Shown here in pieces: positions 3,246-16,238 of a DNA stretch of 64,000 nt. The translations under genes and the position numbers were made by a program. Within the stretch, counting starts at the first letter, position 1, and each line of letters begins with the position of its first letter. The DNA lies in IMG/VR virus record IMGVR_UViG_3300044833_000115, positions 2,758 to 66,757 of that record; one strand, given 5' to 3'. The notes under the pieces are model-generated. The model was not told where the DNA came from. It was given only the letters and a program-made list of their open reading frames with translations, and did no database searches. Source of the stretch: a virus.

Positions 3246-4154
3246 CTACGAGGTCGGGAAGCTGCCCCAGACCGCCCGGGGGTTCTTGTGGGCCAGGCCG
3301 AACCGCTCGTAGCCCATGACCAGCAGGTTGCCCGTGGTCGGATCGACTTGCATATCCATCTCGAAAGCGACACGTTCGTAGTAGGCGAGCCCCTTGACCG
3401 AGGTCAGCACGAACCACGCAAAGTTGGAGGTCAGGAACTCGTTGACCACGTAGCCGTCGGGCAGGGCGCCCGTGGAATACAATGCGGAGACATCGTTGTT
3501 GTTGGTGCCGACGCGCAGTTCGGTCTTGGTCAGCCGTTCCGCCGCCCACTGGAGCGCGATGGGAACCACCATCTTGCGCCCGCGTGTCATGCTGATCAGC
3601 CCGGCCTGGTCGGGGTAGACGCGGATCTGGTTCAGCGCGGTCTCCAGCGCGGCCTCGTTCAAGTCGAGGTCGGTGGTCGGCCGGTTGGCATAGTTGCCGT
3701 TGTCGATCGGGTGCACGGTGGAGAACAGGGCCACGCCATCGCCGCCCACCAACGGGTTGTAGGTGGTGCCGGTGTTGATGATGTTCGCCGCGAAGATCTC
3801 TTTCGTCTGGGCGAAGCTCTCCATCAAACCCATGGACTGCGGGTTGAAATTTTCTTTGTAAAGGTTGTCGTCCAGGGTCTCGCGGGTGATCGCGAAGCCC
3901 AGGCCCACCGCACGGTGCTCGATGTTGTAGACGAAACGTTCGCCCGGGGCGTTGTCGAACATCGTCGCCGCGCCCTCGGCCTTGAGTTGCGCCAGGCCGG
4001 TGTAGCGCATCTCGGCCACGCGTTCGATCGCCATCTTGGAGGTCGCGGTGTCGAAGATCTGCGTGTAACGCTTGGGAAGGTCTGGGTATTTCCCGGTGAT
4101 CTCGGCCAGGCCAGGCAGCAACAGATCGCGGATTTGAGCCCGATTGATTGCCAT
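3246..4154 (-). CDS. Major capsid protein (HK97 fold, Mu gpT-like)
   Basis: MAINRAQIRDLLLPGL start, GDGVALFSTVHP, C-terminal YERFGLAHKNPRAVWGS; RBS AGGAG; position downstream of scaffold. Confidence 0.9.
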   Translation of the reverse strand: MAINRAQIRDLLLPGLAEITGKYPDLPKRYTQIFDTATSKMAIERVAEMRYTGLAQLKAEGAATMFDNAPGERFVYNIEHRAVGLGFAITRETLDDNLYKENFNPQSMGLMESFAQTKEIFAANIINTGTTYNPLVGGDGVALFSTVHPIDNGNYANRPTTDLDLNEAALETALNQIRVYPDQAGLISMTRGRKMVVPIALQWAAERLTKTELRVGTNNNDVSALYSTGALPDGYVVNEFLTSNFAWFVLTSVKGLAYYERVAFEMDMQVDPTTGNLLVMGYERFGLAHKNPRAVWGSFPTS

Positions 4155-4163
4155 GCTGGGCTC

Positions 4164-4799
4164 CTATGCCTGACCGGTTCTGGTCGTGAAGTCCGGCGTG
4201 TTGAGCCGTACTTCGAGCCACTGATTGTCGTTCGTGGCGACGTAGGCGGCGTTGACGGCCGGGGTGACCAGACCACCAGACAGCCCGATGATCCCCTCGA
4301 TGCGGAACGGCAGGGTTGCGGTGTTGGTCAGCGAGCCGGTGATCGGCGCGGCCAAGCCGCAGGTGCTCAGACCGGGCAGCGAGGTCGTGGTGCCTGGCCC
4401 GTTGGCCCCGGTGGCCACGTCGCAGTTGGAACCGATCGAAGCCTGGGTCAGCGCGGTCCCGATGTTCTGCGCCATGAAGGTCATGAACGGGTCTTGCTCG
4501 ATGACCGCGAAAACCGTGCCGGTGACGTTCGCGGGGATGCGCCAGGCCGGGTAGAATTCGGTCTTCAGTGTGCCCGGGTCCAAATACCTGCACCCGCGGA
4601 AGATCCCGTGAATGGTGGTACCGCCGGCGACGTAGAGGCGGATCGTGCCATCCGAGGCGCGGAACACCGGGTCGCCGAAGTTGATGCGCGTGCCATACGT
4701 GGAAAGGATGACCTCTTCGCGCATCGAATAGTTGGGCGCGGCACCATCGAAGCGCCGCAGCGTCTGAAAGCCGGATGGGGCGATGGCGTTCGCTGCCAT
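4164..4799 (-). CDS. Capsid-associated (decoration/cement) protein
   Basis: 211 aa, NAIAPSGF...INFGDPV...GIFRGCRY...TATLPFRI pattern of the pre-capsid gene in such podophages. Confidence 0.7.
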   Translation of the reverse strand: MAANAIAPSGFQTLRRFDGAAPNYSMREEVILSTYGTRINFGDPVFRASDGTIRLYVAGGTTIHGIFRGCRYLDPGTLKTEFYPAWRIPANVTGTVFAVIEQDPFMTFMAQNIGTALTQASIGSNCDVATGANGPGTTTSLPGLSTCGLAAPITGSLTNTATLPFRIEGIIGLSGGLVTPAVNAAYVATNDNQWLEVRLNTPDFTTRTGQA

Positions 4800-4965
4800 G
4801 GTGGAATCACTCCGCGATGTGCGGCTGATCCCAACGGCGTGCTGGCTTCAGACCTGGGGGGTTTTGCGCGACATGCGCGGTCCCGTACGGCGTGTGCGGG
4901 ATGGCGGTTCGGGCGGCTCGCCCTGGTTAGCGGGTGGCTGCGGCACGCAGACCCGGGAGCGGTTT
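4800..4965 (-). promoter_or_regulatory. Structured 5' leader of the capsid operon with five short hairpins
   Basis: mRNA-strand hairpins CTGC-GTGCC-GCAG, TCCCGCAC-ACGCC-GTACGGGA, GCGC-ATGTC-GCGC, CTGAAGCCAGC-ACGCC-GTTGGGATCAG and CCGC-ACATC-GCGG, the last overlapping the RBS. Confidence 0.7.
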
Positions 4966-5006
4966 AGGCAGACATCGCGCGCAAGGCGCAGCGAACGTCA
5001 GGCCCT

Positions 5007-5035
5007 ATCTAGGGCTTTCCCTATAGGTTCCGCAA
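5007..5035 (-). promoter_or_regulatory. Putative promoter for the capsid operon
   Basis: TTGCGG-N17-CTAGAT on the minus strand, upstream of the structured leader. Confidence 0.4.
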
Positions 5036-5070
5036 GCCGCACGTTCTTTATCGTATCCGGCAGGGCGTGC

Positions 5071-5250
5071 CTAAGCCGCCTTCGGGGGCGTCAGCGGGGC
5101 GGTCAGCCGCTTGGTCACCGGTTCGAGGTAGATCTGCCCGACGCCTTCGCAGGCTTTGCAGCGCGGGAACGTGCGATCGGCGAAGTCGCCGGCGCGGTGG
5201 AACCCCAAACCGCCGCAGGACTCGCAGCGGCTGAACGCGGTGCTGGTCAT
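5071..5250 (-). CDS. 59-aa DnaJ-type zinc-finger mini-protein (below the ORF-track cut-off)
   Basis: MTSTAFSRCESCGGLGFHRAGDFADRTFPRCKACEGVGQIYLEPV...; two CxxCxGxG repeats; RBS GAGGGG. Confidence 0.7.
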   Translation of the reverse strand: MTSTAFSRCESCGGLGFHRAGDFADRTFPRCKACEGVGQIYLEPVTKRLTAPLTPPKAA

Positions 5251-5262
5251 CGTGAAGTCCCC

Positions 5263-5715
5263 TCAGTCTGGCACGACCTGTTCGGGCGGCGGGTCGTAGG
5301 TGGTCTTGAAGCCCTTGCCGGCAACGCGCTTGCCTTCCAGGCCGAGGCGCTGCACCTGGGACGCAACCTGATGGCGCGCGGCGAACGTGTCCATCTCGCG
5401 CGCCTCGGCGGTGATGTCGTCGGGGCGTTCCATCAGCACCAGGCCCCCGCGGAGGATCTCGGCACCGGTGACCGCCCGCCGGCCGGTCAGTTCAATGTGC
5501 CGCTCGGCCGGCACCGGGGTCCAGCCGTTTTGCTCCAGGTTGATCATGTTCTCCTGATCATCCTGGCCGAAGATGGTCTTCCGCTTCCACTCGTATGTCA
5601 TCCCCGGGGGGATCAGATCGCGGTCGAACTCGAACCGGTTGGAGCCTGTGCGCAGAGTGATGCGCTGTTGGACGCGCTGCTCGCTGCGCTGGGGAGCACG
5701 GGGCGGTTGGGCCAT
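5263..5715 (-). CDS. Conserved head-module protein
   Basis: GMTYEWKR...GWTPVP...GGLVLMERP pattern between scaffold and capsid genes. Confidence 0.7.
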   Translation of the reverse strand: MAQPPRAPQRSEQRVQQRITLRTGSNRFEFDRDLIPPGMTYEWKRKTIFGQDDQENMINLEQNGWTPVPAERHIELTGRRAVTGAEILRGGLVLMERPDDITAEAREMDTFAARHQVASQVQRLGLEGKRVAGKGFKTTYDPPPEQVVPD

Positions 5716-6014
5716 CAGATTTCCTTACGCAGGTGTCTCGCCTCGGCGAGCATGAAGCCGAACAGCGGCCAGAGTTTTCCAACGGCCTGGTCGCGCGCCA
5801 GCTTCTCGCCGATCGGCTGGTTGTAGTTGCGCGGGTCTACGCAGGCGCTTTCGCCGCGCACCGAGTACCCGTTGTCTAGAACCATGTGGCACAGCGTCAC
5901 CGTCTCGCCGAGGCGGATGTAGCTGACCCTGGCGATGCGGGCCTCCATCTCGGGCAGCGTGATCCGCTCATGGGGCAGGCGGTCGATCGCGGCCTTCAGT
6001 TCCTCACTGGTCAT
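5715..6014 (-). CDS. N4 Gp49/Sf6 gp66 family protein; candidate cyclic-nucleotide sponge (Acb4-like)
   Basis: TLCHMVLDNGYSVRGESACVDPRNYNQPIGEKLA...LWPLFGF signature; ATG at 6014 overlaps the scaffold stop (ATGA). Confidence 0.8.
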   Translation of the reverse strand: MTSEELKAAIDRLPHERITLPEMEARIARVSYIRLGETVTLCHMVLDNGYSVRGESACVDPRNYNQPIGEKLARDQAVGKLWPLFGFMLAEARHLRKEI

Positions 6015-6892
6015 CCTTGCCCCCTGGCTTTCAGCTTTGCGCGCTGGATCGCATACTTTTCGTAACGTCCGGGTACCCAATTGCCCGCCGGGTCTTTGTG
6101 TCCCTGGATCGGAATATCGGGATTGGTGATGTCGGCTGCTTCCATTTCGTCGGCCGACAGCCTGACCGCCTTGCGTTGTTCGGCCTGGCGCGGGCTGGAA
6201 CGCGACACCGGCACCTCGGCCGGGGCCTCACGCCGCCGCGGGGCTTCGTGCCCGGCATCGGTGTCGTCGGGGTCCACCCGGCGCGCGCTGCGGTGGACCA
6301 CTTCGTTGATCACCTCGAAATACTCGGGTGAATCGACCTCGATCCCCTCGGCCACGGCCAACTGATGCCCGGCGAAGGTCTTCGCCCGCAGCTTCGGATC
6401 TTCCATGAATTCAGGGTTGTCCCTGATCCACCGGCGCTGCGGCGCCGAATACTGGCTCAGATCCACCCCTTCCTGCTGCGGCGGGGCCTTCGCGGCGCGG
6501 GTCTTCTCGCCTTCCAGCCAGACCTTGTAGTTGCGATCCTGCTGCTGCTTGGCGCGCAGTTCGGCCAGCTTGTCCTGCACCTCGGCGGCTTCATCGAAGC
6601 GGCCTTCCGCCAGGGCCTCGGAATACTGCTTTTTCAGCCCCGTCGCCGCGGTGTCGGCACTCTCCAGACGTGAGACAACGGCCAGTTCTTCCGCCTCAAA
6701 GCGGGCGTTGGCGTGCGTGCTGGCGGTCTGTTCGGCCCGATTTCGCCCGGTGCGCTCGGTTTCGAGTTCGAGTTTTAGCTTCCGGGTGTTGGCCTTTTCC
6801 TGGGCCAGCATGGCGCGAACATCGTCATCCGATACCGTGCCGCCGTTGACGTGACCATCGACGCGATCATCGTCATCTGTCGTTCCTGACAT
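6011..6892 (-). CDS. Capsid scaffolding protein
   Basis: 293 aa charged coiled coil, WIRDNPEF, DSPEYF, C-terminal VRLSADE...YEKYA; upstream of capsid. Confidence 0.75.
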   Translation of the reverse strand: MSGTTDDDDRVDGHVNGGTVSDDDVRAMLAQEKANTRKLKLELETERTGRNRAEQTASTHANARFEAEELAVVSRLESADTAATGLKKQYSEALAEGRFDEAAEVQDKLAELRAKQQQDRNYKVWLEGEKTRAAKAPPQQEGVDLSQYSAPQRRWIRDNPEFMEDPKLRAKTFAGHQLAVAEGIEVDSPEYFEVINEVVHRSARRVDPDDTDAGHEAPRRREAPAEVPVSRSSPRQAEQRKAVRLSADEMEAADITNPDIPIQGHKDPAGNWVPGRYEKYAIQRAKLKARGQG

Positions 6893-7124
6893 GATGAGCC
6901 GTGTCCAGAGCCTGCCGTAGCAGGCCGTTCCGCCAGCGCGTGATGTGGTCGCGCTGCTCGACGGGGACGCCGGACTCGATGAGTTCCTGTGCCTCGATGG
7001 TTAAAAGGGGGTCGTCAGCAAGCGCCTGGGCCAGCACTGTCACCGCAGGGCGCACCACACCGATATGCAGGCGGGTCGCACCGAGGCAGTCATTCAGATG
7101 CTCGGCCAGGGTTTTAGGGGTCAC
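6873..7124 (-). CDS. Hypothetical protein
   Basis: GTG at 7124 coupled to the GroES stop; MTPKTLAEHLNDCLG... Confidence 0.5.
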   Translation of the reverse strand: MTPKTLAEHLNDCLGATRLHIGVVRPAVTVLAQALADDPLLTIEAQELIESGVPVEQRDHITRWRNGLLRQALDTAHHVRNDR

Positions 7125-7519
7125 CGGATGCTGTCGGGGTCGGTGATGATCATATGCACGTCCACGTCTTCGATGTTGCGCGCGCGCCGCTTGCCGAACT
7201 CCATGGCAAAGGTGTCGCCGACATTGAACACGATCCAGTCGCCGACCTGGGGCTTGATCGCCCCGAAACGATGGGTCGGATCGTCCTCGAAGGCGATCGG
7301 GCCGAGGGCGAGCACCAGGCCAACCTTGCCCTGGTAGTTGCTTTCGTCCCGTGTCTTGCCCGGCATGATGATGCCGCTCTTGGTCACCTCGGGCGGCACA
7401 TAGACGCCGACCAGTACTCGAGCACCCAGCACCGTCAGGCCCGCCATGAAGGGCGCGCATTCCTCGGAAATGGCGATCCGCGGATCGGCATCGTGCACCA
7501 TCGGTATCGCGTGGGCCAC
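7121..7519 (-). CDS. groES: Phage co-chaperonin GroES-like protein
   Basis: LGARVLV...EVTKSGIIMP...GKVGLVLALGP...VGDWIVF. Confidence 0.85.
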   Translation of the reverse strand: MAHAIPMVHDADPRIAISEECAPFMAGLTVLGARVLVGVYVPPEVTKSGIIMPGKTRDESNYQGKVGLVLALGPIAFEDDPTHRFGAIKPQVGDWIVFNVGDTFAMEFGKRRARNIEDVDVHMIITDPDSIR

Positions 7520-7523
7520 GTTT

Positions 7524-7760
7524 TTACTCCGGTCGGTCTTGTTGTTCCACCCGCGTCAGGTCGTCAGCGGCATGGAATACCCACTCCAATGCCCGCAAAT
7601 ACCCAATTCGCTGGCGGGCTTCCTCGATCGTTTTCCACTTGCCGTCAACGAGATGCTGCGTTTCGTCGACCAAATGCTCGCGGATCACCGGCTCCAGCCG
7701 GGTCCAAAGCGTCGGGTCGTAATAGGTCCGAAGCGGCCCGATGCTGATGGGAATGGTCAT
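7524..7760 (-). CDS. Hypothetical protein between portal and GroES
   Basis: Coupled ATG at 7760; helical RQRIGYLRAL motif. Confidence 0.6.
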   Translation of the reverse strand: MTIPISIGPLRTYYDPTLWTRLEPVIREHLVDETQHLVDGKWKTIEEARQRIGYLRALEWVFHAADDLTRVEQQDRPE

Positions 7761-8071
7761 ACCCGTTCTGGCCACCTCCACATGCCGGCCTCAACACCGA
7801 CACCCACCGAGCACGCCCAATACAGGTCGGCGCCGTCCAGCATTACCTGCCCGTTCACCAGGCTGTTGGGTTCGCTGCCCCAGACCCTGGTGATGATCAT
7901 CGGGAACGTGTCGCCGGCGGCGACCGAGTTGCCGACGTGCACCATGACGCCGGTGGCGTTCATCCGGTGCGCGTCCATGCTTCGCCGCGCGTCTTCGCGC
8001 CGGCGATTGATCGCCTCCGCATCGGCCTCCCGCAGTTGGTAAATCACGATCCGTCCGATGGTTGGGGTCAT
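7757..8071 (-). CDS. Conserved phage hypothetical protein (PTIGRIV...WxWP family)
   Basis: MTPTIGRIVIY...PMIITRVW...VNGQVMLDG...WRWPERV. Confidence 0.7.
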   Translation of the reverse strand: MTPTIGRIVIYQLREADAEAINRRREDARRSMDAHRMNATGVMVHVGNSVAAGDTFPMIITRVWGSEPNSLVNGQVMLDGADLYWACSVGVGVEAGMWRWPERV

Positions 8072-8637
8072 TTGCCATACGCCTTTATTTTTTGAGCCCG
8101 GCCCTCCGCGCTGCCGGCGCCGGCCTTCATCTTCGCGCCGATGCCTCCGCCGCGCTTCATGCCGGGAGGCTTCATGCCAGGCGGGGGCGGCATCCCGGGC
8201 GGCGCACCGGCCCCAGGCGGGCCACCAGCGCCACCAGGGGGCATTCCCGGCGGCATACCGGGTGGCATCCCCGGCGGGGGGCCACCAGCACCGGGGGGCG
8301 GCCCCATCGGCGGATGCGGCGGCATCGCCCCAGGCGGGGGCATCATCGGCCGCGGCGGACCACCGGCCGGCGGGGGGGGCGTGCCGACGATGACGTTGAC
8401 GTTCGTCTTGCCGTGCTTGTTCGACTTGCCGCCCCGGGCGCGGCCGATGTCGCCGGCGACACTGCCGCCCTCGGCACGGGTTGCCCCGCCGCGGGCTCGA
8501 TCCATGCCGGCCGGGTGCCCGATCGGCCCCTGGGTCGGGCGAACCGTGTCCATCTTGCTCGCGATCCCGCCCTTGCTGCCCGAATAGCCGGTGCGCGAAA
8601 GCAGGCTCGCCCCCTTGCCCGAACGATCATCCTTCAT
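8068..8637 (-). CDS. Pro/Gly-rich protein with xxxGG motifs; putative internal head protein
   Basis: RARGG x2, RAEGG, MKRGG, PPGM repeats, KTNVNVIV, C-terminal AGAGSAEGRAQK. Confidence 0.7.
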   Translation of the reverse strand: MKDDRSGKGASLLSRTGYSGSKGGIASKMDTVRPTQGPIGHPAGMDRARGGATRAEGGSVAGDIGRARGGKSNKHGKTNVNVIVGTPPPPAGGPPRPMMPPPGAMPPHPPMGPPPGAGGPPPGMPPGMPPGMPPGGAGGPPGAGAPPGMPPPPGMKPPGMKRGGGIGAKMKAGAGSAEGRAQKIKAYGK

Positions 8638-8938
8638 CGGTGCTGCCTTTCTTGCCCCGGCCCTTCGGCGGGGTGGGGTCAGTATCAAACGGCGGGGAGA
8701 CCGGCTCGTCGACCGCGCCACCCATCGCCGCGGCGACCTGATCCGTTACCTCGCCCAGGTCAGCGTGCGGCGCCACCAGCACCGGATCGCCCGTCGGCAT
8801 GGCCAGACTGACGACGTGACCGCCCTTGGCGGCTTCAATCGCCTCGGCGGCGATCGTCGCGTGCGTCGCGTCGGTCGCCGGCGACTTCAGCACGTGCGGG
8901 TGCAGGATGAAGTGGTGAACCTGCTGGAGCATCTTCAT
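8627..8938 (-). CDS. Hypothetical protein
   Basis: 103 aa, coupled to its neighbours. Confidence 0.55.
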   Translation of the reverse strand: MKMLQQVHHFILHPHVLKSPATDATHATIAAEAIEAAKGGHVVSLAMPTGDPVLVAPHADLGEVTDQVAAAMGGAVDEPVSPPFDTDPTPPKGRGKKGSTDEG

Positions 8939-9144
8939 TTGGGTTTACCTTCTTTGATTCCAGGATAACGATTGGCGACTTTATCCCTGACAAGTTTTCG
9001 CAGGGCGGCATCGCCATGCTGGGCAACACGGCTGAGTGCCGCTCGCGCATGGGAAGCATTTTGCACCGGGTACGCGCGCTTGGACGGTACGGCGAACGCC
9101 TTGGCGGGCAGGGCGTCACGCTCATCGCTGGTCAGCTTGGACAT
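8935..9144 (-). CDS. DUF6582-like small protein
   Basis: KLTSDERDALPAKAFAVPSKRAYPVQNASHARAALSR. Confidence 0.7.
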   Translation of the reverse strand: MSKLTSDERDALPAKAFAVPSKRAYPVQNASHARAALSRVAQHGDAALRKLVRDKVANRYPGIKEGKPK

Positions 9145-9288
9145 CCCGCGTTCCCTCCATAGGGGTAACCGTCAGTTCGCCGGTGAGTTGGTTCACCTGC
9201 ATCTGGTTGTCGCCGCTGATCCAGGTGAAATACTGATCGGCATCGAGGTCTTCGCGCCGGTGCCAGGGGCTCCCGTCTTTCAGATCCG

Positions 9289-9519
9289 TCATTTCCGGCC
9301 CTTCCGTTTGCGGGGGTTGCGGGTCGCGGCGTTCAGTCCCTCGGTCGCCAGCTTCAGCGCCGTCGTCATGCCGATGCCGATCAGGATCAGCACATGCGGC
9401 GCACCCAGCGCCTTGATCAGCGCGTCCAGGTTCATCGCGTCGGGGTCGGTCACCTCCCACGGCGGCTCGTTGTCGATGATGCGCCGGGCTTCGGCTTCGG
9501 CTTCAGCCAGGTCGCTCAT
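9289..9519 (-). CDS. Hypothetical protein
   Basis: Coupled ATG at 9519; followed by another small coupled ORF at 9122-9292. Confidence 0.5.
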   Translation of the reverse strand: MSDLAEAEAEARRIIDNEPPWEVTDPDAMNLDALIKALGAPHVLILIGIGMTTALKLATEGLNAATRNPRKRKGRK

Positions 9520-9785
9520 GACTGCGCCGTGTAGCCGTCCTCGAATTCCTTCTTCGGGCACACCGACTTGTAGCCGTCGCGGTAGCGCATCGCGTAGTCG
9601 CCGAGGGTGCAGCGCCTCACCATCATCGGTTCGGTGGTGACGAAGGACTCGGTCGAACAGTCAGGCAGCGACACGACAAGGCCGATGGGAAAATCCCCCG
9701 GCAGCGGGTTCAAAGGATACTCGAAACCAACAATCGGCGCGGCACTGACGACTTTGTGGGAGACGTATTTAGGCCAGTCGGTCAT
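9516..9785 (-). CDS. Conserved small phage domain (YxSHKxVxA...YxDGYxSxxPxxxFExGY)
   Basis: KYVSHKVVSAAPI...GDYAMRYRDGYKSVCPKKEFEDGY; coupled to the portal stop. Confidence 0.7.
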   Translation of the reverse strand: MTDWPKYVSHKVVSAAPIVGFEYPLNPLPGDFPIGLVVSLPDCSTESFVTTEPMMVRRCTLGDYAMRYRDGYKSVCPKKEFEDGYTAQS

Positions 9786-12139
9786 GGCTTTTTCTTTCCT
9801 GCTGGTTTCGCTGGCTTGGGCTTCATGCTCGCCACCTTGGTCGCAGTCTTGGCCGAGGTGTCGGTTGCGTGCCGGGCGGTGTCGGCCGAGGTTTTCGCAG
9901 TCTCGCGGGCCGTGGCCGCGCCGGTATCTGCAACATGGCGATCGGTGTCAGCTTGCGTCGCCGCGGTCGCCGCGCCAAGGGCCGCGGTGGTGTGCGCCGT
10001 ATGCGCCTCGATCCCGGCCTTGTGCTTGTCGGTGTCGGCCTTGATCTGGGCGGTGTGCACGGCGGTCGCCGCGTCGATCGCGGTGCCTTGCTGGTCGCGG
10101 GTGTGCTCGCTCGCCAGCCGGGCCTTCTCGATCTCCAGGCGGGTGTTCTCGACTTGCTCCTGGCTCGTCGCGGTGCGCTGGCGGGTCTCCATCTCCAGTT
10201 GCTTGTTCTGGGTTTCGCTCGCCATCTCGGCCTTCTTGTTCTCGTCCTCGATCTGCGCCTCGGCCGCCTTGCGTTGCAGATCCACGCTGGCCTGCTGCGC
10301 CTGCTGCATCTTGGCTTGCGCCTCCAGCATCCGCGCCTGGCCGATCAGCGGGTCGGGGGGGGCCGGGCCGGGGGGGCCACCGGCCGGCGGCGCGGCGGGC
10401 TGGGCCAGCACGAAGGCGTCGGCGTCGTTGACCCCGATCGTCTTCCAGGCCCGCTTATGCACCGCCGTCATGTCGTAGAGGGTCGGGTTCTGCTGCGCCA
10501 CGGTGACCAGGGCGGTGGCAAGCTGGATGCGGTGGATCTGGCTGGGCACGTTCGGGTCGGACGCCGGCAGCAGGTTGCAGTTGGCGAATTCGTCGGGCTT
10601 GTCCCATGGCCGCAGCGCGCCGGGCATCTTCGCCAGCGCCTCGGGGTTCTCGACAAAGCACTCCCTGATCAGTTCCAGTTCGCGCGCCTGGGCACGGTGC
10701 AGCCGCTTGTGCACGGCACTCATCGTCTGGGTAGACACCTCGATCATGCTCATCATGGTGCCGACCGGGACGTTGGTGCGGCCCTCGCCCATCTCGGTCT
10801 CCGCCATGCCGGCCATCCGCATGGAGTCCTGGCCGATCGCCTCGGCCAACTGCATGAACACCGGCGATACGTCCTTGTAGGGCATCGGCATCAGCGCTTT
10901 GCGGATGTCATCGAGGGAGCCGATGTCGATATCCGGCCACTCGCCAGGCCCCGGGTTGATGTCGTTGGTGCCCATCCTGACGGATTTGACCTTCACCCCG
11001 CCGGGCGCGTTGGAATACATCCCCGAGGTGACCAGCAGCCGCCAGATGCCGCGGAGCGCCTGGGTCTGGTTGCCCAGCAGGTGCATGAAGCCGAGGCAGA
11101 GAAAGTTGAAGCTGGGCACCATGCCGTAGTGCACGAACCGCTGGCGGCGCTTGAACTGGTCGTCGCCATCCTTCCAGCCGCGCCTGACCGCCAGCACCTT
11201 CCGCGACTGCTTGTCGATCGTGCAGATGTAGGACAGCGGCAGATCGGGGAGTTTGCGGTCATCGATCCCGTAGTCACCCAGGTCCAGGTCGGCAGTGATC
11301 TCGTAGATTTCGTGCGGCACATCCTTCGGCCGCGCCTGGATGCCGCTCGTTCCCTGCACCCGCTCCTGGGCGATCCGCAGCATGTCCATCGACGGTTGCG
11401 CGCTGCCCAGGTCTTCGTCGCACCAGTCGGCGAACTTCTGCATCCGCTTGACCATGACGGTGGACATTTCGGAGCGGTGCGTCACCCGGAGGGCTGTTTC
11501 CAGGTCGGTCGCGTCCTCGGAGACGATCAGATCCTCGATCCCGACCGTCTCGGACACCGGCCGCTTGCGCAGCGGGTGCATGTAAACCTTCTTGAAGGCG
11601 TTGCCCGAGTAGAACAGGCCGAACAGCATCCGGTCGGTGTCGGGGTAGTACTCGGGCGCCCCGCTGGTCAGGTAGGTGTTGATATCGGTCTGGAACGCCG
11701 CGGCCAGGTCATCGCCCTCGGCAGATCCGCCGGCGACGTTCTCGACCTTGCACGGCCCACCGGCCGGCATCAGTTCCGCTCCCGCGGCCGACTGCGCACG
11801 CACCACCGCTTCCAACAGCAGCGGGTGGCCTATCTGGCTGGTCTTGGCGTTCTTGTCGTTCTTGGTTTCCAGGCCCAACAGGTCGATGCCGTTGGTGTAG
11901 TTGGCCAGGAACCCCTCGCGGCTCTTGATGTCCATCTCGACGCCATCGAGCAGTTCCTCGGCGATCCCGGCCTCATCCAGTTCGTCGCGCAGGGCGAGGT
12001 TTTCGTGAAACCCCTTGGTCGGGTCATTCGATCGGCGAGCACTCGGGGCCTTGATCGTCACACCACCGTCGGGGTCTATCTCCACGACGGTTTCGGAGGT
12101 CCCCAGGCCGAAGCCCGGGATCTGACTCATTGCGTTCAC
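9782..12139 (-). CDS. Portal protein (P22-like) with long C-terminal coiled-coil barrel
   Basis: 785 aa, HPLLLEAV, GNAFKKVY, RVTHR, PGEWPDID, PVGTMM; follows terL. Confidence 0.9.
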   Translation of the reverse strand: MNAMSQIPGFGLGTSETVVEIDPDGGVTIKAPSARRSNDPTKGFHENLALRDELDEAGIAEELLDGVEMDIKSREGFLANYTNGIDLLGLETKNDKNAKTSQIGHPLLLEAVVRAQSAAGAELMPAGGPCKVENVAGGSAEGDDLAAAFQTDINTYLTSGAPEYYPDTDRMLFGLFYSGNAFKKVYMHPLRKRPVSETVGIEDLIVSEDATDLETALRVTHRSEMSTVMVKRMQKFADWCDEDLGSAQPSMDMLRIAQERVQGTSGIQARPKDVPHEIYEITADLDLGDYGIDDRKLPDLPLSYICTIDKQSRKVLAVRRGWKDGDDQFKRRQRFVHYGMVPSFNFLCLGFMHLLGNQTQALRGIWRLLVTSGMYSNAPGGVKVKSVRMGTNDINPGPGEWPDIDIGSLDDIRKALMPMPYKDVSPVFMQLAEAIGQDSMRMAGMAETEMGEGRTNVPVGTMMSMIEVSTQTMSAVHKRLHRAQARELELIRECFVENPEALAKMPGALRPWDKPDEFANCNLLPASDPNVPSQIHRIQLATALVTVAQQNPTLYDMTAVHKRAWKTIGVNDADAFVLAQPAAPPAGGPPGPAPPDPLIGQARMLEAQAKMQQAQQASVDLQRKAAEAQIEDENKKAEMASETQNKQLEMETRQRTATSQEQVENTRLEIEKARLASEHTRDQQGTAIDAATAVHTAQIKADTDKHKAGIEAHTAHTTAALGAATAATQADTDRHVADTGAATARETAKTSADTARHATDTSAKTATKVASMKPKPAKPAGKKKP

Positions 12140-12945
12140 CAGGCAAATCCCTCGGCCGTTCGTCGCTCACGCGCACCAGCATCGTTGGCATCACGCCGCG
12201 CCGGGTCGGCCGCAGGCATCCACAGGGAAGCTCCCAAACATCGAGATCACACTGGCCCATTTCGGGGCGGCGTAACCATCCCATTTCGATCGCGGTTCGC
12301 TGAACCACGATCATCCGCTGTCGCCAAGATACGTCTTCAGCGCGGCCATCAGCCGCGCCCACCAGCCAGGTTTCTTCGGCGGATCGGGCAGCGGGTATTT
12401 CATCCCAGGATCGATGCTTTCCATCCGTTCCTCTTGAAAATCGGCCGCAGATCGTAGTCGTGGCACCCGATCGCCCACTTGAGGATCGGCGCCGCGGCGA
12501 TGCAGCGGCGGCTATGCGTCAGTTGTTCCATGACGATCCCGGCGACGAAGTGATCGGCGACCACGCGCACCAGGATCTCGCCCTCGATCACCCCCAGCAC
12601 TGGCCGGTCCACCAGTCCCCCACCGCGATCAGCGTCATCCAGAACATCATAGTCGCGATTGTCAGCAGCGCGATCGTGCTCAGACCACGCGCGGCCGACG
12701 GGTACGCATGAATGGTCACCACTTCCCGTTGCGCAGGATCTCGGTCACCAGGGCGGGGTCGGGGGGACATGAGCATTCCGGCCACGTGCATCCTTCAGGG
12801 CTGAAGTATGGCGCACACATGAACGGCTGGCGCCGCGGTTCGACAGTCTCGGCGATGATCAGCGGCCCACCAGGATACCCGGCGGCGTCACCAATTTGCG
12901 GCAGGAATTCGTCCCGGCGATCAGCGCTCGACATGGCTACACCCC

Positions 12946-15609
12946 TCACACGCCATACTGCTCGCGGATGCTGGGAGCGTTGCCCTTGAAGGTCAGCCCT
13001 TCGAGCCGTTCGGTCTCGACTTCATCGGTGTGCTGGACAACACCCAGGTCGCGCAGCTTCTTCACGCCCGCGCTCACGGTGTCCGTGAGGTCTTTCCACT
13101 TGCTCCGCGGAAACTGCGAAACCTCGTCCATGACCATATCGGCCCATTTGCGGGCTGGTGCAAAGACCAATCCAGCCGAGAACGCGGGGGAGACCGCGTG
13201 CAGACGGGCAACCTTGTCGCCCTTCGGCGACTCCGCGAAGATGGTGAACTCCCCCTCACGCATCAGCCGACGCAGTTCCTGCATCACCGATAACCCGCTC
13301 GCCTTGGCCTCGATCAGCACCGCATCAGCCTTCCGCCGGCGCGCGGTATCGAGGATCTTCAACGTGAGCGCGCGCAGTTCCAGCCGCTCACGCCAGGCCT
13401 CCAACAGGATCACCTTGGGATTGCCGCTCATCTCGAACGAGCCCCAGACGGTGCACGCCGACCAATCGTTCTCTTCCTTCTCGGTGTAGGCGGTGTCCAC
13501 GGACAGCAGAATGTAATCCAGGTCGGGGTAAAGCATCCGCAACACCTTCGTCCCGTCCACATCGACCTCGCGCGTCCAACTGTCCTCCTGCCCCTCGGGC
13601 GGCCAGACGCGCCACCACTCCCGCGGAATGATTCCACCGCCCCGCGTGGTCGGGATCTGGTTCATCTGCCCGGCCCAGGAGTGCGGCCCCATCAGCCGCT
13701 CGGTCTTCACCGCCCAGGCAGGGCTGAACCGGGCCGGCCAGAGCATCGCGCCCTCGATCTTGCGCGGATCATCGAAGCCGATGACGGTGTGACAGTGCCG
13801 CCGGCTGTCGTACTCCATCGGCAACATCAGGTGGACGATGCTGCTGCCGCCGGGCTCGGCCAGGACGTGCCCCGACAGGTCGTTTTCGTGCAGCCGCTGC
13901 ATGACGATGACCTCGGCGCCGTGCACCGGGTCGTTGGATCGCGTGCGCCACACTTCGTCGTAGGCGCGCAGCGTCGCGTTGCGCTGAAGATCGCTTTCGA
14001 CCTCATCCGGCTTGGTCGGATCATCGACAATCCGGATCGCGCCGCCCTTGCCCAGGCTTTCAGGGATGCCGGTCGATATCCGGCTTCCGCCCTCCAGGGT
14101 GTCGTACTGGGACTGATTGTCGCGGTCGCGGGCGATCCGCACCCGATCGCCCCATCGCGCCTGATACCACTCGCTGCCGATCAGCCGGCGCGCAGTCACG
14201 CCGTCCGCTTCGGCCTTGTTGGCGCCGTAGGAGGCGCACAGGAACCGCACGCCGGCGCCGCGCAGGGGCAATTCCTCATCCGGCTCCAGCGCCCAGGTCC
14301 AGCACGGCCAGGCGATGGCGATCAGGTTGGTGTTGTGCGTCGGGTTTAGCTGGCGCCCGACCAGATACAGCCCATCAGGCCGATCCACCTGGATTGACCG
14401 CGCGCCTGTCTTCTCGATCGGGCCGATAGAGCGGATGCCCACCGCCCGTTGCGGGGAGAGGATCGTGTTTTGCTTCCGAGGGATGCGTGTCGGGAGACGC
14501 ATCGTTGGCTGGAAGCAAACGCGAAACATCGTCTTTCGACCCTGGATCGGCCGGCCATTGATCAGTCGCGGGCGCTCGCGAGGTTCTTCTGAAATCACGT
14601 AAGGCCGCTGGCCCATCGTGGTCAGTAGATCGACAATGCCATCACGAAGCCGCGGCATCGCCGTCGCTATGTAAACCCTACCGTCCCGATCCACGCCGCC
14701 ATCGGTATCCACCAGCCCGGCCAGCAGTTGCAGCCGCTGTTCGTAGCTGGAGCGCAGGTAATTTTCGGGGATGTGCTTGTCGCCCAGCACCTTGAGGGCG
14801 CCCATGGCGGTATAGAAACCGCCTTTGAAGTCGGCGTAGTGCACACCGGTAACGGGATGAACTCGGCGCTGGCTAACGACACAACCGCCGTCGACCATCG
14901 CCTCGACAACCCCGGCATCCCGCTCGACATATGCGATCCTGGCCTGCCGACTCGACCCATCCCCAAGCCAAGCCCCGAGCGCATACGGGTGGATGGGCAA
15001 CAGGCTGGCATGTGGGAATTCCAGGGGATCGATTTCTGGAAGCTGGAAGCGAGCACGGCCGCGGGGCCATACCCCCCGCTGCGCCATATCCCACGTTTCC
15101 ATCGTCTTGCGACGCCGCTCAGGCAAACGCTCACCACGGTCAATGACCGTCCACTCGTGATTCGGGTGACAGCGGATCACCTCGCCGTTCGTCAGTGTGA
15201 CAGGAACAACCTCATCCACGTCAGCCGATAGCCCGATGATCGTAGTTGGCTGGCCATCAGGCCCGAATACCTGATCCCCAATCTTCAGATCGCCATGCGT
15301 GGACCATCCTGCCGTTGTCAGAACCGGCGTATCATGGGCACACGCCTTACCGGTTCGCGGCGGCTGGTTGATCAGCAATCGGACGATCTGCCCGGCGGTC
15401 ACCGCTTCGAGGTGCTCGGCAATCGCCCCGATATGCCAGTTCGACATGAACGGCGAACTGTCGAACGCGCCCCACGACTGCGCCAGGAACTCCGCCAGGG
15501 ACGCCTCGCACGCCTCCTGGCTTTCGCGCAGTTCGATCATCCGCTTTAGCATCACCGCCCGGCGGATCTTGGCCGGGCTCAATGTCGCGATGCTGGGAGG
15601 TAGGGCCAT
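12946..15609 (-). CDS. terL: Terminase large subunit containing an intein
   Basis: Walker A NQPPRTGK|T split by the intein, Walker B IVDDP, VIVMQRLH, RNase H-like SVDTA...IEAKASG...DLTD; likely start ATG 15609. Confidence 0.93.
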   Translation of the reverse strand: MALPPSIATLSPAKIRRAVMLKRMIELRESQEACEASLAEFLAQSWGAFDSSPFMSNWHIGAIAEHLEAVTAGQIVRLLINQPPRTGKACAHDTPVLTTAGWSTHGDLKIGDQVFGPDGQPTTIIGLSADVDEVVPVTLTNGEVIRCHPNHEWTVIDRGERLPERRRKTMETWDMAQRGVWPRGRARFQLPEIDPLEFPHASLLPIHPYALGAWLGDGSSRQARIAYVERDAGVVEAMVDGGCVVSQRRVHPVTGVHYADFKGGFYTAMGALKVLGDKHIPENYLRSSYEQRLQLLAGLVDTDGGVDRDGRVYIATAMPRLRDGIVDLLTTMGQRPYVISEEPRERPRLINGRPIQGRKTMFRVCFQPTMRLPTRIPRKQNTILSPQRAVGIRSIGPIEKTGARSIQVDRPDGLYLVGRQLNPTHNTNLIAIAWPCWTWALEPDEELPLRGAGVRFLCASYGANKAEADGVTARRLIGSEWYQARWGDRVRIARDRDNQSQYDTLEGGSRISTGIPESLGKGGAIRIVDDPTKPDEVESDLQRNATLRAYDEVWRTRSNDPVHGAEVIVMQRLHENDLSGHVLAEPGGSSIVHLMLPMEYDSRRHCHTVIGFDDPRKIEGAMLWPARFSPAWAVKTERLMGPHSWAGQMNQIPTTRGGGIIPREWWRVWPPEGQEDSWTREVDVDGTKVLRMLYPDLDYILLSVDTAYTEKEENDWSACTVWGSFEMSGNPKVILLEAWRERLELRALTLKILDTARRRKADAVLIEAKASGLSVMQELRRLMREGEFTIFAESPKGDKVARLHAVSPAFSAGLVFAPARKWADMVMDEVSQFPRSKWKDLTDTVSAGVKKLRDLGVVQHTDEVETERLEGLTFKGNAPSIREQYGV
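14332..15345 (-). mobile_element. 338-aa intein with LAGLIDADG homing endonuclease (class-3-like, Ala1)
   Basis: N-terminus ACAHDTPVLT, block B CHPNHEW, LGAWLGDG and LAGLVDTDG motifs, C-terminus PTHN followed by Thr+1. Confidence 0.9.
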
Positions 15610-15699
15610 GGGAATCATCCGCGATTGCGGCTGATCCCAACGGCACGTTGGCTCAGACGGGGTTAGAAGGCGGCTGCGGCACGCAGCCCCGAAGGCGGG
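15610..15699 (-). promoter_or_regulatory. Structured 5' leader of terL, paralogous to the capsid leader
   Basis: GGCTGC-GTGCC-GCAGCC, CTGAGCCAAC-GTGCC-GTTGGGATCAG, CCGC-AATC-GCGG, then ATGATTCCC-ATG. Confidence 0.7.
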
Positions 15700-15978
15700 T
15701 TAGATCCAAGTCTCCACGATGACAGGATCATCGCCCGGCTGTCGCGGCATCCGGCAAAGCCCGGGGGGAAGCAAGTCCCTCACAGCCTCTAGCGTCGCAG
15801 CGACCATGACGAAATCACAAGGAGCACCGGCGCGCGATGAATATGGCCTGGCGACGAAGACCCCCGGGAAGTCCTTTGGTTTTTCGTAGATTGTCCACAC
15901 CAGCAGATCGCCGGCCACGTGGGCTTTCCGCTGGAAACGCCAAGCGTCGTCCCGTGTGGGGTAGTCGCTCAAAGCCAC
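15700..15978 (-). CDS. Conserved phage hypothetical protein
   Basis: WTIYEKPKDFPGVFVAR...LPPGL...DDPVIVETW. Confidence 0.7.
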   Translation of the reverse strand: MALSDYPTRDDAWRFQRKAHVAGDLLVWTIYEKPKDFPGVFVARPYSSRAGAPCDFVMVAATLEAVRDLLPPGLCRMPRQPGDDPVIVETWI

Positions 15979-16238
15979 GCCTCAGCCCGCTCGCCAAAGC
16001 GGCCTTTATACCCCGCGATCATCAATTCCAGATCGGCGAGCCGCACCGGCACCTCGGGCAGCGCGCCGAGTTTTGCCGAGGTGCCTGGAATTGCCGCCGT
16101 GCAGATTGTCAGCGCCTGGCTATGGCTGTAGCGACCGGCGTGCGAAATCCGCCGCACATACCCCCGGCCACCCGGCCCCCACCACGCGCTGTGCTCATGC
16201 GACCAGATTAAATAATCGCCGTCGGAATTGTCAGCCAT
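15969..16238 (-). CDS. Conserved phage hypothetical protein
   Basis: YLIWSHEHSAWWGP..RGY....AGRYS pattern. Confidence 0.7.
   Translation of the reverse strand: MADNSDGDYLIWSHEHSAWWGPGGRGYVRRISHAGRYSHSQALTICTAAIPGTSAKLGALPEVPVRLADLELMIAGYKGRFGERAEAWL

What the first reader, a model, noticed from the sequence alone, without database searches (positions are those of the whole stretch)
4800..15699. Same hairpin leader with C-RYGYC-G pentaloops precedes both terL and the capsid operon
Seen: two leaders 10.8 kb apart (4800-4965 and 15610-15699) share the block TCTGA(A)G-CCARC-RYGCC-GTTGG-GATCAG-CCGC-A(C)ATC-GCGG-A(G)TGATTCC(A)C(C)-ATGGC and an upstream CTGC-GTGCC-GCAG hairpin. A stem difference is structure-compatible (A-U vs G-U). 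The capsid leader adds two hairpins whose stems are unrelated but whose loops fit the consensus (ACGCC, ATGTC), which points to loop recognition. The final hairpin overlaps the RBS. Inference: a protein-binding translational operator or antitermination signal coordinating packaging motor and capsid synthesis, with site number (2 vs 4) tuning output. I do not recognise it as a named RNA family.
Basis: partly seen in the sequence, partly recalled or inferred. Interest (0 to 1): 0.78.

Follow-up and report, generated by a model that had tools for sequence, protein, structure and literature searches.

The report
Start-codon-hiding RNA leader, duplicated before terL
Two phage late genes (the capsid decoration/major-capsid pair and the large terminase) are preceded by copies of the same folded RNA leader, which can either hide or expose the ribosome-binding site; this looks like a new but not exotic family of translational control element.

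Summary
On the minus strand, a ~60-nt module and a 43-nt upstream block occur exactly twice in the 66.8-kb phage record: before a 211-aa decoration-like gene plus the major capsid gene (leader A), and before an intein-bearing terL (leader B). There is no Rfam match.

Leader A is an orthologous ~200-nt leader in 6 related phage contigs, and its hairpins covary. In 8 of 8 distinct copies the module has two exclusive folds. P1+P2 leaves the ribosome site free. A longer hairpin pairs the Shine-Dalgarno/AUG region and is predicted 1.4-9.4 kcal/mol more stable.

Loops are more alike within a phage than between phages.

The terL copy is private to this phage: 0 of 5 relatives' terL upstream regions have it. 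So terL/capsid "coordination" is not a conserved design.

Best reading (about 0.5): a cis-acting translational switch, plausibly opened by an unidentified loop-binding factor, as Mu Com opens mom. No protein partner, transcript end or antitermination role could be tested.

Verdict: a new variant of a known kind, of moderate interest.

The parts
5006..5035 (-). Candidate promoter of leader A: TTGCGG (5030-5035), 18-nt spacer, TAGATA (5006-5011)
   Evidence: Inference from conservation. Four of five aligned leaders keep TTG(C/T)NN, 18 nt, then TA(A/G)NN(T/A), 7-8 nt before box1, with an unconserved spacer. The consensus scan found no promoter at its threshold.
4988..4998 (-). box1 (ACGTTCGCTGC), complementary to codons 2-5 of the 211-aa gene
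   Evidence: 10-bp perfect complement to GCAGCGAACG at +3..+13; 5 of 500 shuffles reach it. Pairing is kept in L093 (15 bp, 1 G-U), L094 (19 of 20, covers ATG) and L095 (13 bp, 1 G-U). Helix cells are 93.6% paired.
4971..4980 (-). box2 (GCGCGATGTC), complementary to the loop and 3' arm of P2
   Evidence: RNAalifold helix at columns 49-55 with 220-226. 88.6% of cells paired; 2 pairs changed on both sides.
4938..4950 (-). Hairpin hp0 of leader A: CTGC-GTGCC-GCAG (part of shared block 1, 4925-4967)
   Evidence: The orthologous hairpin in L093, L094 and L095 has different stems; 4 pairs changed on both sides.
4911..4923 (-). Hairpin GGGC-GAGCC-GCCC
   Evidence: The stem is conserved and the loop varies across 5 leaders; 100% of cells paired.
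4882..4900 (-). Hairpin CCCGCAC-ACGCC-GTACGGG (one C.A mismatch)
4866..4878 (-). Hairpin GCGC-ATGTC-GCGC
   Evidence: The second stem pair is C-G, A-U or G-C in different relatives.
4825..4851 (-). P1 of leader A: CTGA-ag-CCAGC-ACGCC-GTTGG-ga-TCAG. This is the anti-sequestor hairpin.
   Evidence: The 5' arm varies (CCAGC, CCAAC, CCGAC, CTAGC) against a fixed GTTGG, always keeping pairs through G-U.
4812..4824 (-). P2 of leader A: CCGC-ACATC-GCGG. Its 3' arm overlaps the SD GGAG (4810-4813).
   Evidence: The stem is invariant in 8 of 8 distinct sequences. Loop length is 3-7 nt.
4796..4837 (-). OFF hairpin of leader A. CCGU+UGGGAUCA pairs with UGAUUCCA+AUGG, with P2 at the tip. It buries the SD flank and the start codon (4797-4799).
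   Evidence: It is the MFE of the local segment, -24.0 kcal/mol. It is 9.4 kcal/mol more stable than P1+P2. P(start paired) is 0.95.
3246..4799 (-). Genes served by leader A: 211-aa decoration/cement-like protein (4164-4799) and major capsid protein (3246-4154)
   Evidence: Pfam Mu-like_gpT and tblastn hits to annotated capsid proteins. AF2 model pLDDT 86. The top nine Foldseek hits are all chains of phage capsid structures; one entry title names a capsid-stabilising protein. Best E is 1.7e-3, with no hit at or below 1e-3.
15672..15688 (-). Hairpin hp0 of leader B: GGCTGC-GTGCC-GCAGCC (shared block 1, 15661-15703)
15631..15656 (-). P1 of leader B: CTGA-g-CCAAC-GTGCC-GTTGG-ga-TCAG
   Evidence: CM hit of 64.5 bits at 15595-15669.
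15619..15630 (-). P2 of leader B: CCGC-AATC-GCGG
15605..15644 (-). OFF hairpin of leader B. GCCGU.GGGAUCA pairs with UGAUUCC.AUGGC. It buries the start codon at 15607-15609.
   Evidence: MFE -24.6 kcal/mol, z = -3.5. It is 7.9 kcal/mol more stable than P1+P2. P(start paired) is 0.99.
12946..15618 (-). terL with an intein. The likely start is ATG 15609, by homology with leader A. An in-frame ATG at 15618 is not excluded.
   Evidence: Terminase_6C plus weak Hint/LAGLIDADG matches. Relatives align to residues 3-92 and 426-890 only.
5071..5250 (-). 59-aa ORF with two CxxCxGxG motifs immediately upstream of leader A (context only, not shown to belong)
   Evidence: Translation. Weak DnaJ_CXXCXGXG hit below cut-off. 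No homologue in any fetched locus or in 5 relatives' records, one of them complete.

Best explanation
The shared block is a cis-acting 5'-leader RNA module that gates translation initiation.

It has two mutually exclusive folds:
- ON fold: hairpin P1 (two helices around an internal loop, capped by an RYGYC pentaloop) and the abutting hairpin P2 form. The spacer and AUG are left single-stranded.
- OFF fold: the 3' half of P1 (last loop bases, 3' arm and linker) instead pairs with the spacer and the AUGG(C) of the start site. This extends P2 into a 16-bp hairpin that buries the SD flank and the start codon.

OFF is thermodynamically favoured. Expression therefore needs something that favours P1. 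This could be co-transcriptional folding, or, as I think more likely, a trans factor that recognises the C-RYGYC-G loops. Those loops are repeated on P1 and on 1-4 look-alike hairpins upstream. Mu Com opens the translation-inhibition structure of mom in the same way.

In the capsid leader the module is embedded in a ~200-nt 5' UTR. Its extreme 5' end (box1/box2) also pairs with codons 2-5 and with P2, closing the whole leader.

The terL copy carries only hp0 + P1 + P2. It is a lineage-specific acquisition.

Shown: the duplication, orthology, covariation, the two alternative pairings, and loop enrichment.
Inferred: that the RNA is made from the proposed promoter, that the switch controls translation, and that a loop reader exists.
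For: 1. Real duplication, present twice only.

2. Orthologous leaders.
- Model R1 was searched over 45 sources (329,801 b). It hit only the window's two copies and the regions just upstream of the 211-aa gene homologue in L093, L094, L095, L177, L219 and L237.
- L219 (27.7 bits) and L237 (25.3 bits) were not in the training set.

3. P1+P2 pairing.
- 90.7% of cells are paired against 82.6% in shuffles (0 of 500 reach it). Slid controls give 22-51%. 4 pairs changed on both sides.

4. Whole hairpin array on a plain MAFFT alignment of 5 leaders.
- 88.8% paired against 82.0% (0 of 500). 7 pairs changed on both sides (0 of 500).

5. The OFF hairpin.
- It is the local MFE in 7 of 8 distinct sequences; in L093 the AUG region is still partly paired but the P2-tipped fold is not the MFE of that segment. 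AUG is fully paired in 5 and partly paired in all 8.
- With the P1 5' arm included, OFF is the MFE in 7 of 8 sequences. In L093 the MFE keeps P1+P2.
- In all 8 the unconstrained MFE is 1.4-9.4 kcal/mol more stable than the RBS-free P1+P2 fold.
- Its strands covary: UGGGAUCA/UGAUUCCA in the window against CGUCGGUG/CACGACG in L237.

6. Control against other starts in the window. Among 52 putative starts, terL and the 211-aa gene rank 2nd and 4th for local structure (-24.6 and -24.0 kcal/mol). P(start paired) is 0.99 and 0.95.

7. A vs B differences. They are about 75% identical. By my reading, the differences fall in loops or bulges, or are G-U to A-U. One terminal OFF pair is the exception.

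8. Loop rule.
- The C-RYGYC-G rule, tested on six relatives: 9 in 1290 leader nt against 6 in 67,256 background nt, p about 9e-15.
- Loops are more alike within a leader than between leaders: 49 of 20,000 shuffles reach the observed value.

9. Sense-strand signal. Four P1 5'-arm variants and two box1/CDS changes are all G-U compatible on the mRNA strand only.

10. Precedent. In Mu, Com binds a short hairpin loop next to a translation-inhibition hairpin that holds the start codon (PMC6483171; abstract and passages read).
Against: - There is no transcript, 5'-end, probing or expression data. No RNA run was listed.
- There are only 8 distinct sequences, and 5 for the array. Several are close relatives, and the tested structures were derived from these same sequences.
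- Energies are predictions in a 65% G+C genome, where many starts look paired.
- A repressive fold in front of the most abundant virion proteins is counter-intuitive.
- No conserved candidate reader was found. The adjacent 59-aa zinc-finger ORF has no homologue in 5 relatives' records, one of them complete.
- The P1 loop's conservation can be explained by its pairing with AUGGC.
- Loop similarity among hairpins could come from internal duplication or gene conversion. ACGCCGT occurs twice in leader A.
- A count of G-U against A-C mismatches in stems of 6 or more was 15 vs 8 by my tally of the listing. That is not decisive.
- The terL copy is absent in 5 of 5 relatives, so it may be a tolerated accident.
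Confidence: 0.5

Rival explanations
1. A cis-only structured 5' UTR with no trans factor. The hairpin array and the paired 5' end protect a heavily used late mRNA from 5'-end-dependent decay or from Rho loading. The OFF/ON alternative merely sets a fixed translation rate through co-transcriptional folding. The loop similarity comes from hairpin duplication.
For: - box1 sits at the predicted 5' end and pairs with the coding start.
- Leaders are C-rich over G on the sense strand: C/G is 1.11-1.39 in 8 of 8 leaders, against 1.00 for the strand overall.
- ACGCCGT is repeated inside leader A.
- No reader protein was found.
Against: - Loops are kept to a consensus while stems turn over completely. 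Examples are L219 with GCGCC three times and L237 with GCGTC three times, on unrelated stems.
- Within-phage loop homogeneity is not needed for stability.
- Leader B lacks box1/box2, yet keeps hp0 + P1 + P2.
Confidence: 0.22
2. A transcription antitermination signal. The hairpins would be nut/boxB-like sites for an N-type protein, or a put-like RNA that modifies RNA polymerase. This would let late transcription read into the capsid and terL genes.
For: - Short hairpins with conserved pentaloops and variable stems are the boxB logic (recalled).
- P1 and P2 abut without a spacer, as two-stem put RNAs do (recalled).
- The element occurs twice in one genome, ahead of two late gene blocks.
Against: - No intrinsic terminator-like site lies in or near either leader.
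- The module runs straight into SD and AUG and pairs with them. Antitermination sites do not need that.
- No Rfam family matched.
- No N- or Q-like family was found among the 40 ORFs scanned in Pfam; 20 ORFs, largely overlapping these, were also scanned in PHROGs.
- The loops are pyrimidine-G-pyrimidine, not purine-rich.
Confidence: 0.1
3. A DNA-level element: operators for a late activator, a pac-type terminase site, or a recombination joint. The hairpins would then be incidental palindromes.
For: - hp0 and the leader B version of P1 are perfect DNA palindromes: CTGCG-TGC-CGCAG and CCAACG-TGC-CGTTGG.
- Leader B lies next to terL.
- The surroundings of terL are rearranged among relatives.
Against: - Palindrome arms differ completely between relatives while pairing is kept. 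A fixed DNA-binding protein would not need that.
- Arm mismatches in P1 are G-U on the sense strand in 4 of 4 variants.
- The element tracks the capsid gene, not terL, in 6 relatives.
- The phage lacks a recognisable virion RNA polymerase that would use hairpin promoters. The 4008-aa protein is DarB-like.
Confidence: 0.07

Closest known systems
Phage Mu com/mom translational activation (Com zinc finger plus the translation-inhibition structure, TIS)
   Same: A short hairpin with a sequence-specific loop lies directly upstream of, and competes with, a hairpin that holds the start codon in its stem. Activation means opening that hairpin (PMC6483171, abstract and passages). In this window a small Cys4 ORF even sits just upstream of leader A.
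   Different: - There is no sequence relation.
- The loop motif differs.
- The hairpin is repeated 2-5 times rather than present once.
- The target genes are capsid and terminase, not a DNA-modification gene.
- The zinc-finger ORF is not conserved in relatives and gave no Com-family Pfam hit.
T4 genes e, soc, 49 and I-TevI: ribosome sites sequestered in an RNA helix, relieved in late transcripts
   Same: SD and/or AUG are sequestered intramolecularly in late-gene leaders (PMC3014915, section 29 passages).
   Different: In T4 the late promoter lies inside the helix, so late transcripts lack its 5' strand. Here the inferred promoter lies upstream of every pairing partner, so relief must come another way.
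Lambda-type N/nut (boxB) and HK022 put antitermination RNAs
   Same: Small leader hairpins are read by their loops.
   Different: - The loop class differs.
- There is no boxA-like partner and no terminators nearby.
- The element is fused to the ribosome-binding site.
P22 scaffolding-protein translational autoregulation
   Same: A head-assembly operon is controlled after transcription. One passage read states that the N-terminus of the scaffolding protein is implicated in translational autoregulation (bioRxiv 10.1101/2022.12.13.520362).
   Different: - That passage defines no RNA target.
- Here the leader precedes a decoration-like gene. The scaffold-like gene (6011-6892) lies upstream of it.

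Membership tests
Any Rfam 15 family | Covariance-model score at or above the family's gathering threshold | tested here: not met
   There were 0 matches at gathering over the whole window. Around both leaders only chance-level hits appeared, at most 16.1 bits with E of 0.96 or more.
Mu Com/mom-type translational activation | Start codon held in the stem of an inhibitory hairpin | tested here: met
   By prediction only. AUG is at least partly paired in the local MFE of 8 of 8 sequences.
Mu Com/mom-type translational activation | Adjacent upstream hairpin whose loop is the activator's binding site | not testable with these tools
   P1 exists, overlaps the OFF strand, and has a conserved loop. 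Binding cannot be tested here.
Mu Com/mom-type translational activation | Com-family zinc-finger protein encoded with the target | tested here: not met
   The 59-aa CxxCxGxG ORF at 5071-5250 matches only DnaJ_CXXCXGXG, and below cut-off. It has no homologue in 5 relatives' records.
T4 gene e-type dual-transcript control | A late promoter inside the inhibitory helix, so that late mRNAs lack its 5' strand | tested here: inconclusive
   The only conserved promoter-like pattern lies upstream of box1. No promoter-like site was found between P1 and the AUG. No 5' ends are available.
Lambda N / boxB nut site | Purine-rich GNRA-like pentaloop hairpin with a boxA element, downstream of an early promoter (features recalled) | tested here: not met
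   Loops are R-Y-G-Y-C. The location is ahead of late structural genes.
N4-type hairpin promoters | A giant virion RNA polymerase gene in the genome (feature recalled) | tested here: not met
   The 4008-aa ORF matches DarB-like antirestriction, methyltransferase and helicase PHROGs, not a polymerase. It has no Pfam hit.

The most novel reading that the evidence does not exclude
A dedicated late translational regulon. A trans-acting RNA-binding protein (phage or host) would read arrays of C-RYGYC-G pentaloop hairpins and thereby hold P1 closed. That opens the SD/AUG-burying helix and switches on the decoration and major-capsid genes. Specificity would be retuned phage by phage: GCGCC three times in one, GCGTC three times in another, GTGCC twice in leader B, and UGAUG twice in a more distant clade. 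This particular phage would have recruited terL into the regulon by copying the module.
Probability: 0.27. Interest if true: 0.7.

Novelty: new variant of a known kind. Interest (0 to 1): 0.5.

Why it matters
Post-transcriptional control of phage head genes is known from only a few model phages. This element is a compact leader supported by comparative evidence. It has an explicit two-state design and a short, testable loop code, and it sits in an uncultivated high-G+C phage clade.

If a loop reader exists, the system would be a Com-like activator acting on the most abundant virion proteins. It would also be a natural example of a regulatory module being copied to bring a second gene (terL) under the same control.

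If no reader exists, it is still a clean new RNA motif for Rfam-type curation. It is also a reminder that conserved hairpin loops can be explained by pairing with the start codon.

Tried and rejected
Searches that found nothing:
- Rfam at gathering and at E up to 10: nothing.
- Phage GenBank collection by DNA, near and distant: no match.
- Viral contigs 15-mer scan: 90 stretches (82 listed in the call). By my reading of the flanking sequence printed for the loci on file, only those from three contigs (L013, L031, L040) resembled the leader; the rest looked like chance.
- Two further viral contigs pattern scans. One gave two more distant relatives, L219 and L237. The other gave none.
- Metagenome scan with the protein alignment: 7 loci, of which only L177 carries the module.
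- Genome contigs by protein: none.
- Genome contigs by pattern: 114 stretches, 80 fetched. All were at most 24.6 bits with model R1, so I treat them as chance.
- Earlier scan notes: none on this element.
- Literature searches listed no description of such a capsid-leader motif.

The many closer homologues P0002-P0030 could therefore not be fetched. They are the obvious way to raise covariation power.
- No RNA holder was listed by the look-up of sequencing runs.
- Supplementary files of papers were not consulted.

Tests that were inconclusive or negative:
- G-U against A-C mismatch counts as a strand test: 31 vs 38 over all crude hairpins, and 15 vs 8 for stems of 6 or more by my tally of the listing. 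Inconclusive.
- A long-range complement for the terL start: none beyond chance, with 438 of 500 shuffles as good.
- The zinc-finger ORF as a conserved partner: rejected.
- A weak sigma-70-like pair upstream of leader B (TTGCCG, 19 nt, GATGAT at 15727-15757) was seen by eye only and is not claimed.

Readings considered and set aside without a test:
- CRISPR-repeat mimicry. Repeat mimics would keep stems as well as loops.
- RNase III sites. The helices are short.

Full report
WHAT IS THERE

The window is 64 kb of a 66,757-b IMG/VR phage record. Both leaders are on the minus strand.

Leader A fills the 271-nt gap 4800-5070, upstream of a 211-aa ORF (4164-4799). That ORF is followed by a Mu gpT-like major capsid gene (3246-4154).

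Leader B lies in the 350-nt gap 15619-15968, upstream of terL (12946-15618).

The two share:
- block 1: 43 nt at 81% identity, containing the hairpin CTGC-GTGCC-GCAG flanked by CTAA(A)CC;
- block 2: about 58 nt, running from TCTGA to ATGGC.

Leader A has about 70 nt between the blocks and leader B has 3 nt. The 18-nt core is exact in both copies. With up to 2 mismatches it occurs nowhere else in the record.

GENES

- terL carries an insert with weak Hint and LAGLIDADG matches.
- 72 relatives were found. The closest (60-77% identity) give TerL matches of about 515-545 aa, and three searched directly align only to residues 3-92 and 429-890. The insert is therefore an intein that these relatives lack.
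- By homology with leader A the terL start is the ATG at 15609. An in-frame ATG at 15618 cannot be excluded.
- The 211-aa protein has no Pfam or PHROG hit. Its AF2 model (pLDDT 86) weakly resembles chains of phage capsid structures. The best matches are chains of the Sf11, HFTV1, TW1 and Pam3 capsid structures, best E 1.7e-3, with none at or below 1e-3.
- Leader A therefore probably precedes the two most abundant head proteins.
- Upstream lie a scaffold-like 293-aa gene, a gp49-family gene, a 150-aa gene, and a 59-aa ORF with two CxxCxGxG motifs.

RELATIVES

Homologues of the 211-aa gene at 70-75% identity (L093, L094, L095), 55% (L177) and 48% (L219, L237) all carry a related leader directly upstream.

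A covariance model of block 2 (R1) was searched over 45 sources. It hit only these leaders and the window's two copies. L219 and L237 were not in the training set.

BLASTN homology of leader A to L094 and L095 spans about 200 nt and stops there.

The module is absent upstream of terL in all five relatives examined:
- G002: terL overlaps an upstream ORF.
- G004: a small ORF is preceded by a 440-nt C/A-rich spacer.
- G005: an A+T-richer intergenic region.
- G006 and G007: coding sequence runs up to terL.

G002, G006 and the complete G007 each have exactly one significant model hit, at the capsid leader.

Leader B is as far from A (75%) as A is from its orthologues in L093 and L094. B is therefore either old or imported, and it is private to this lineage.

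HAIRPIN ARRAY

I used a plain MAFFT alignment of five capsid leaders (A3) and took five hairpins from the window sequence.
- 88.8% of cells are paired, against 82.0 +/- 1.5% in shuffles (0 of 500 reach it).
- Slid controls give 33-55%.
- 7 pairs changed on both sides (0 of 500).

Caveat: the structure comes from one of the aligned sequences, and five related sequences are few.

THE SWITCH

RNAfold on block 2 does not return P1+P2 as the best fold. With the P1 5' arm included, in 7 of 8 distinct sequences the MFE pairs three elements with the SD-AUG spacer and AUGG(C): the last loop bases of P1, its 3' arm, and the linker. This extends P2 into a long hairpin. The exception is L093, where the MFE keeps P1+P2.

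- AUG is fully paired in 5 of 8 sequences and partly paired in all 8.
- Forcing the ribosome site free gives P1+P2 at -13.9 to -17.4 kcal/mol. The unconstrained MFE is 1.4-9.4 kcal/mol lower.
- The two strands of the OFF helix differ between clades yet stay complementary: UGGGAUCA/UGAUUCCA in the window, and CGUCGGUG/CACGACG in L237.
- Among 52 putative starts in the window, terL and the 211-aa gene rank 2nd and 4th for local structure. P(start paired) is 0.99 and 0.95.
- By my reading, the differences between A and B fall in loops and bulges, or convert G-U to A-U. One terminal OFF pair is the exception.

One consequence follows. The GCC of the P1 loop plus the following GU pair with AUGGC. 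That loop's conservation therefore does not by itself need a protein.

LONG-RANGE CLOSURE (LEADER A ONLY)

- A conserved box1 (4988-4998) is a perfect 10-bp complement of codons 2-5. 5 of 500 shuffles reach this.
- The pairing is kept or extended over the ATG in L093, L094 and L095, with two G-U-compatible changes and one mismatch.
- box2 (4971-4980) complements P2.
- Together the two helices are 91.5% paired, against 27-48% when slid.
- Leader B has nothing comparable: 438 of 500 shuffles do as well.

Just upstream, four of five leaders keep the pattern TTG(C/T)NN, 18 nt, TA(A/G)NN(T/A), placed 7-8 nt before box1, with an unconserved spacer.

I infer a promoter there, so that box1 is the 5' end of a ~200-nt UTR. 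The consensus scanner found nothing at its threshold, so this is inference.

A more distant annotated relative, MW202675.1, has a tRNA-like stretch, a terminator-like hairpin, and a near-consensus TTGACA, 17 nt, CATTAT ahead of the homologous gene. This supports a dedicated promoter for this gene pair.

LOOP CODE

It gives 9 hairpins in 1290 leader nt, against 6 in 67,256 background nt. The expectation is 0.12 and p is about 9e-15.
- With the slightly wider R-N-G-Y-Y rule, which I chose after looking, the count is 16 in 1505 nt against 47 in 195,041 nt. That is a 44-fold enrichment.
- Orthologous hairpins are not independent events, so these p-values overstate the case.
- Loops are more alike within a leader than between leaders. 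The mean Hamming distance is 1.21 against 1.67, and 49 of 20,000 shuffles reach it. The loop list was curated by eye.
- L219 has GCGCC three times and L237 has GCGTC three times, on unrelated stems. Leader B has GTGCC twice.
- A more distant clade (L179-L181, 46% protein identity) has two hairpins with TGATG loops instead.

MECHANISM

The best-supported reading is a translational switch. P1 is the anti-sequestor and the extended hairpin is the sequestor.

Because OFF is favoured, I infer that something stabilises P1. The repeated, phage-specific loops make a loop-reading protein the most economical candidate. The extra hairpins would act as cooperative sites.

This is the logic of Mu Com and mom (PMC6483171). 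It differs from T4 gene e-type control, in which late transcripts simply lack the 5' strand (PMC3014915).

Rival readings are scored in their own section:
- cis-only stability or Rho shielding (leaders are C-rich over G);
- antitermination;
- DNA-level roles.

LIMITS

No RNA data exist for this uncultivated phage. The closer homologues could not be fetched. No reader protein was found. The adjacent zinc-finger ORF is not conserved. The structures rest on 5-8 related sequences and on predicted energies.

VERDICT

The feature is real. It is an undescribed leader-RNA family of a known functional kind. The terL/capsid sharing is a peculiarity of this one phage rather than a conserved coordination device.

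Noticed in passing
window 12946-15618 (-), roughly residues 93-428 of TerL: terL is interrupted by an intein-like insert with weak Hint, Hom_end and LAGLIDADG_3 matches. The closest TerL relatives (60-77% identity) lack it: their matches are about 515-545 aa, and three searched directly align only to residues 3-92 and 429-890. I did not examine them.
   Followed up: partly
window 5071-5250 (-): A 59-aa ORF with two CxxCxGxG zinc-finger motifs and GC3 of 0.90 sits between the conserved 150-aa gene and leader A. It is absent from all fetched loci, including the L093-L095 loci that span the same position, and from 5 relatives' records.
   Followed up: yes
L096 1865-2310 (IMG/VR 3300044840_000039): A 446-nt non-coding spacer upstream of the terL operon of a relative. 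It is 45% C and 15% G (C/G 2.96) and is built from CCTAACC-like repeats. It looks like a Rho-loading or CA-rich enhancer tract. CTAACC also flanks hp0 in both window leaders: 3 of the 8 minus-strand copies in the window lie in the leaders.
   Followed up: partly
window 4164-4799 (-): The 211-aa protein has at least 100 homologues of about 200 aa and no annotation. It folds with confidence (pLDDT 86). Its only structural neighbours are chains of phage capsid structures, weakly.
   Followed up: partly
L179-L181, about 110 to 48 nt upstream of the 211-aa gene homologue: A more distant clade has an unrelated leader with two hairpins that share the loop TGATG: GGGGC-TGATG-GCTCC and CCGGC-TGATG-GCTGG. 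The design of repeated loops on different stems may be wider than the R1 family.
   Followed up: no
window 15969-16238 (-) and L097 5049-5279: The 89-aa gene upstream of leader B has its only homologue downstream of terL, on the opposite strand, in relative G005. The terL neighbourhood has been rearranged between these phages.
   Followed up: no
window 39638-51664 (-): A 4008-aa ORF matches DarB-like antirestriction, methyltransferase and helicase PHROGs. It has no Pfam hit at E up to 0.01.
   Followed up: no
L255 2140-2320 (MW202675.1): In the nearest annotated phage, the homologous gene pair is preceded by a tRNA-like sequence, a terminator-like hairpin, and a near-consensus sigma-70 promoter. 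The tRNA was not checked with ARAGORN.
   Followed up: no
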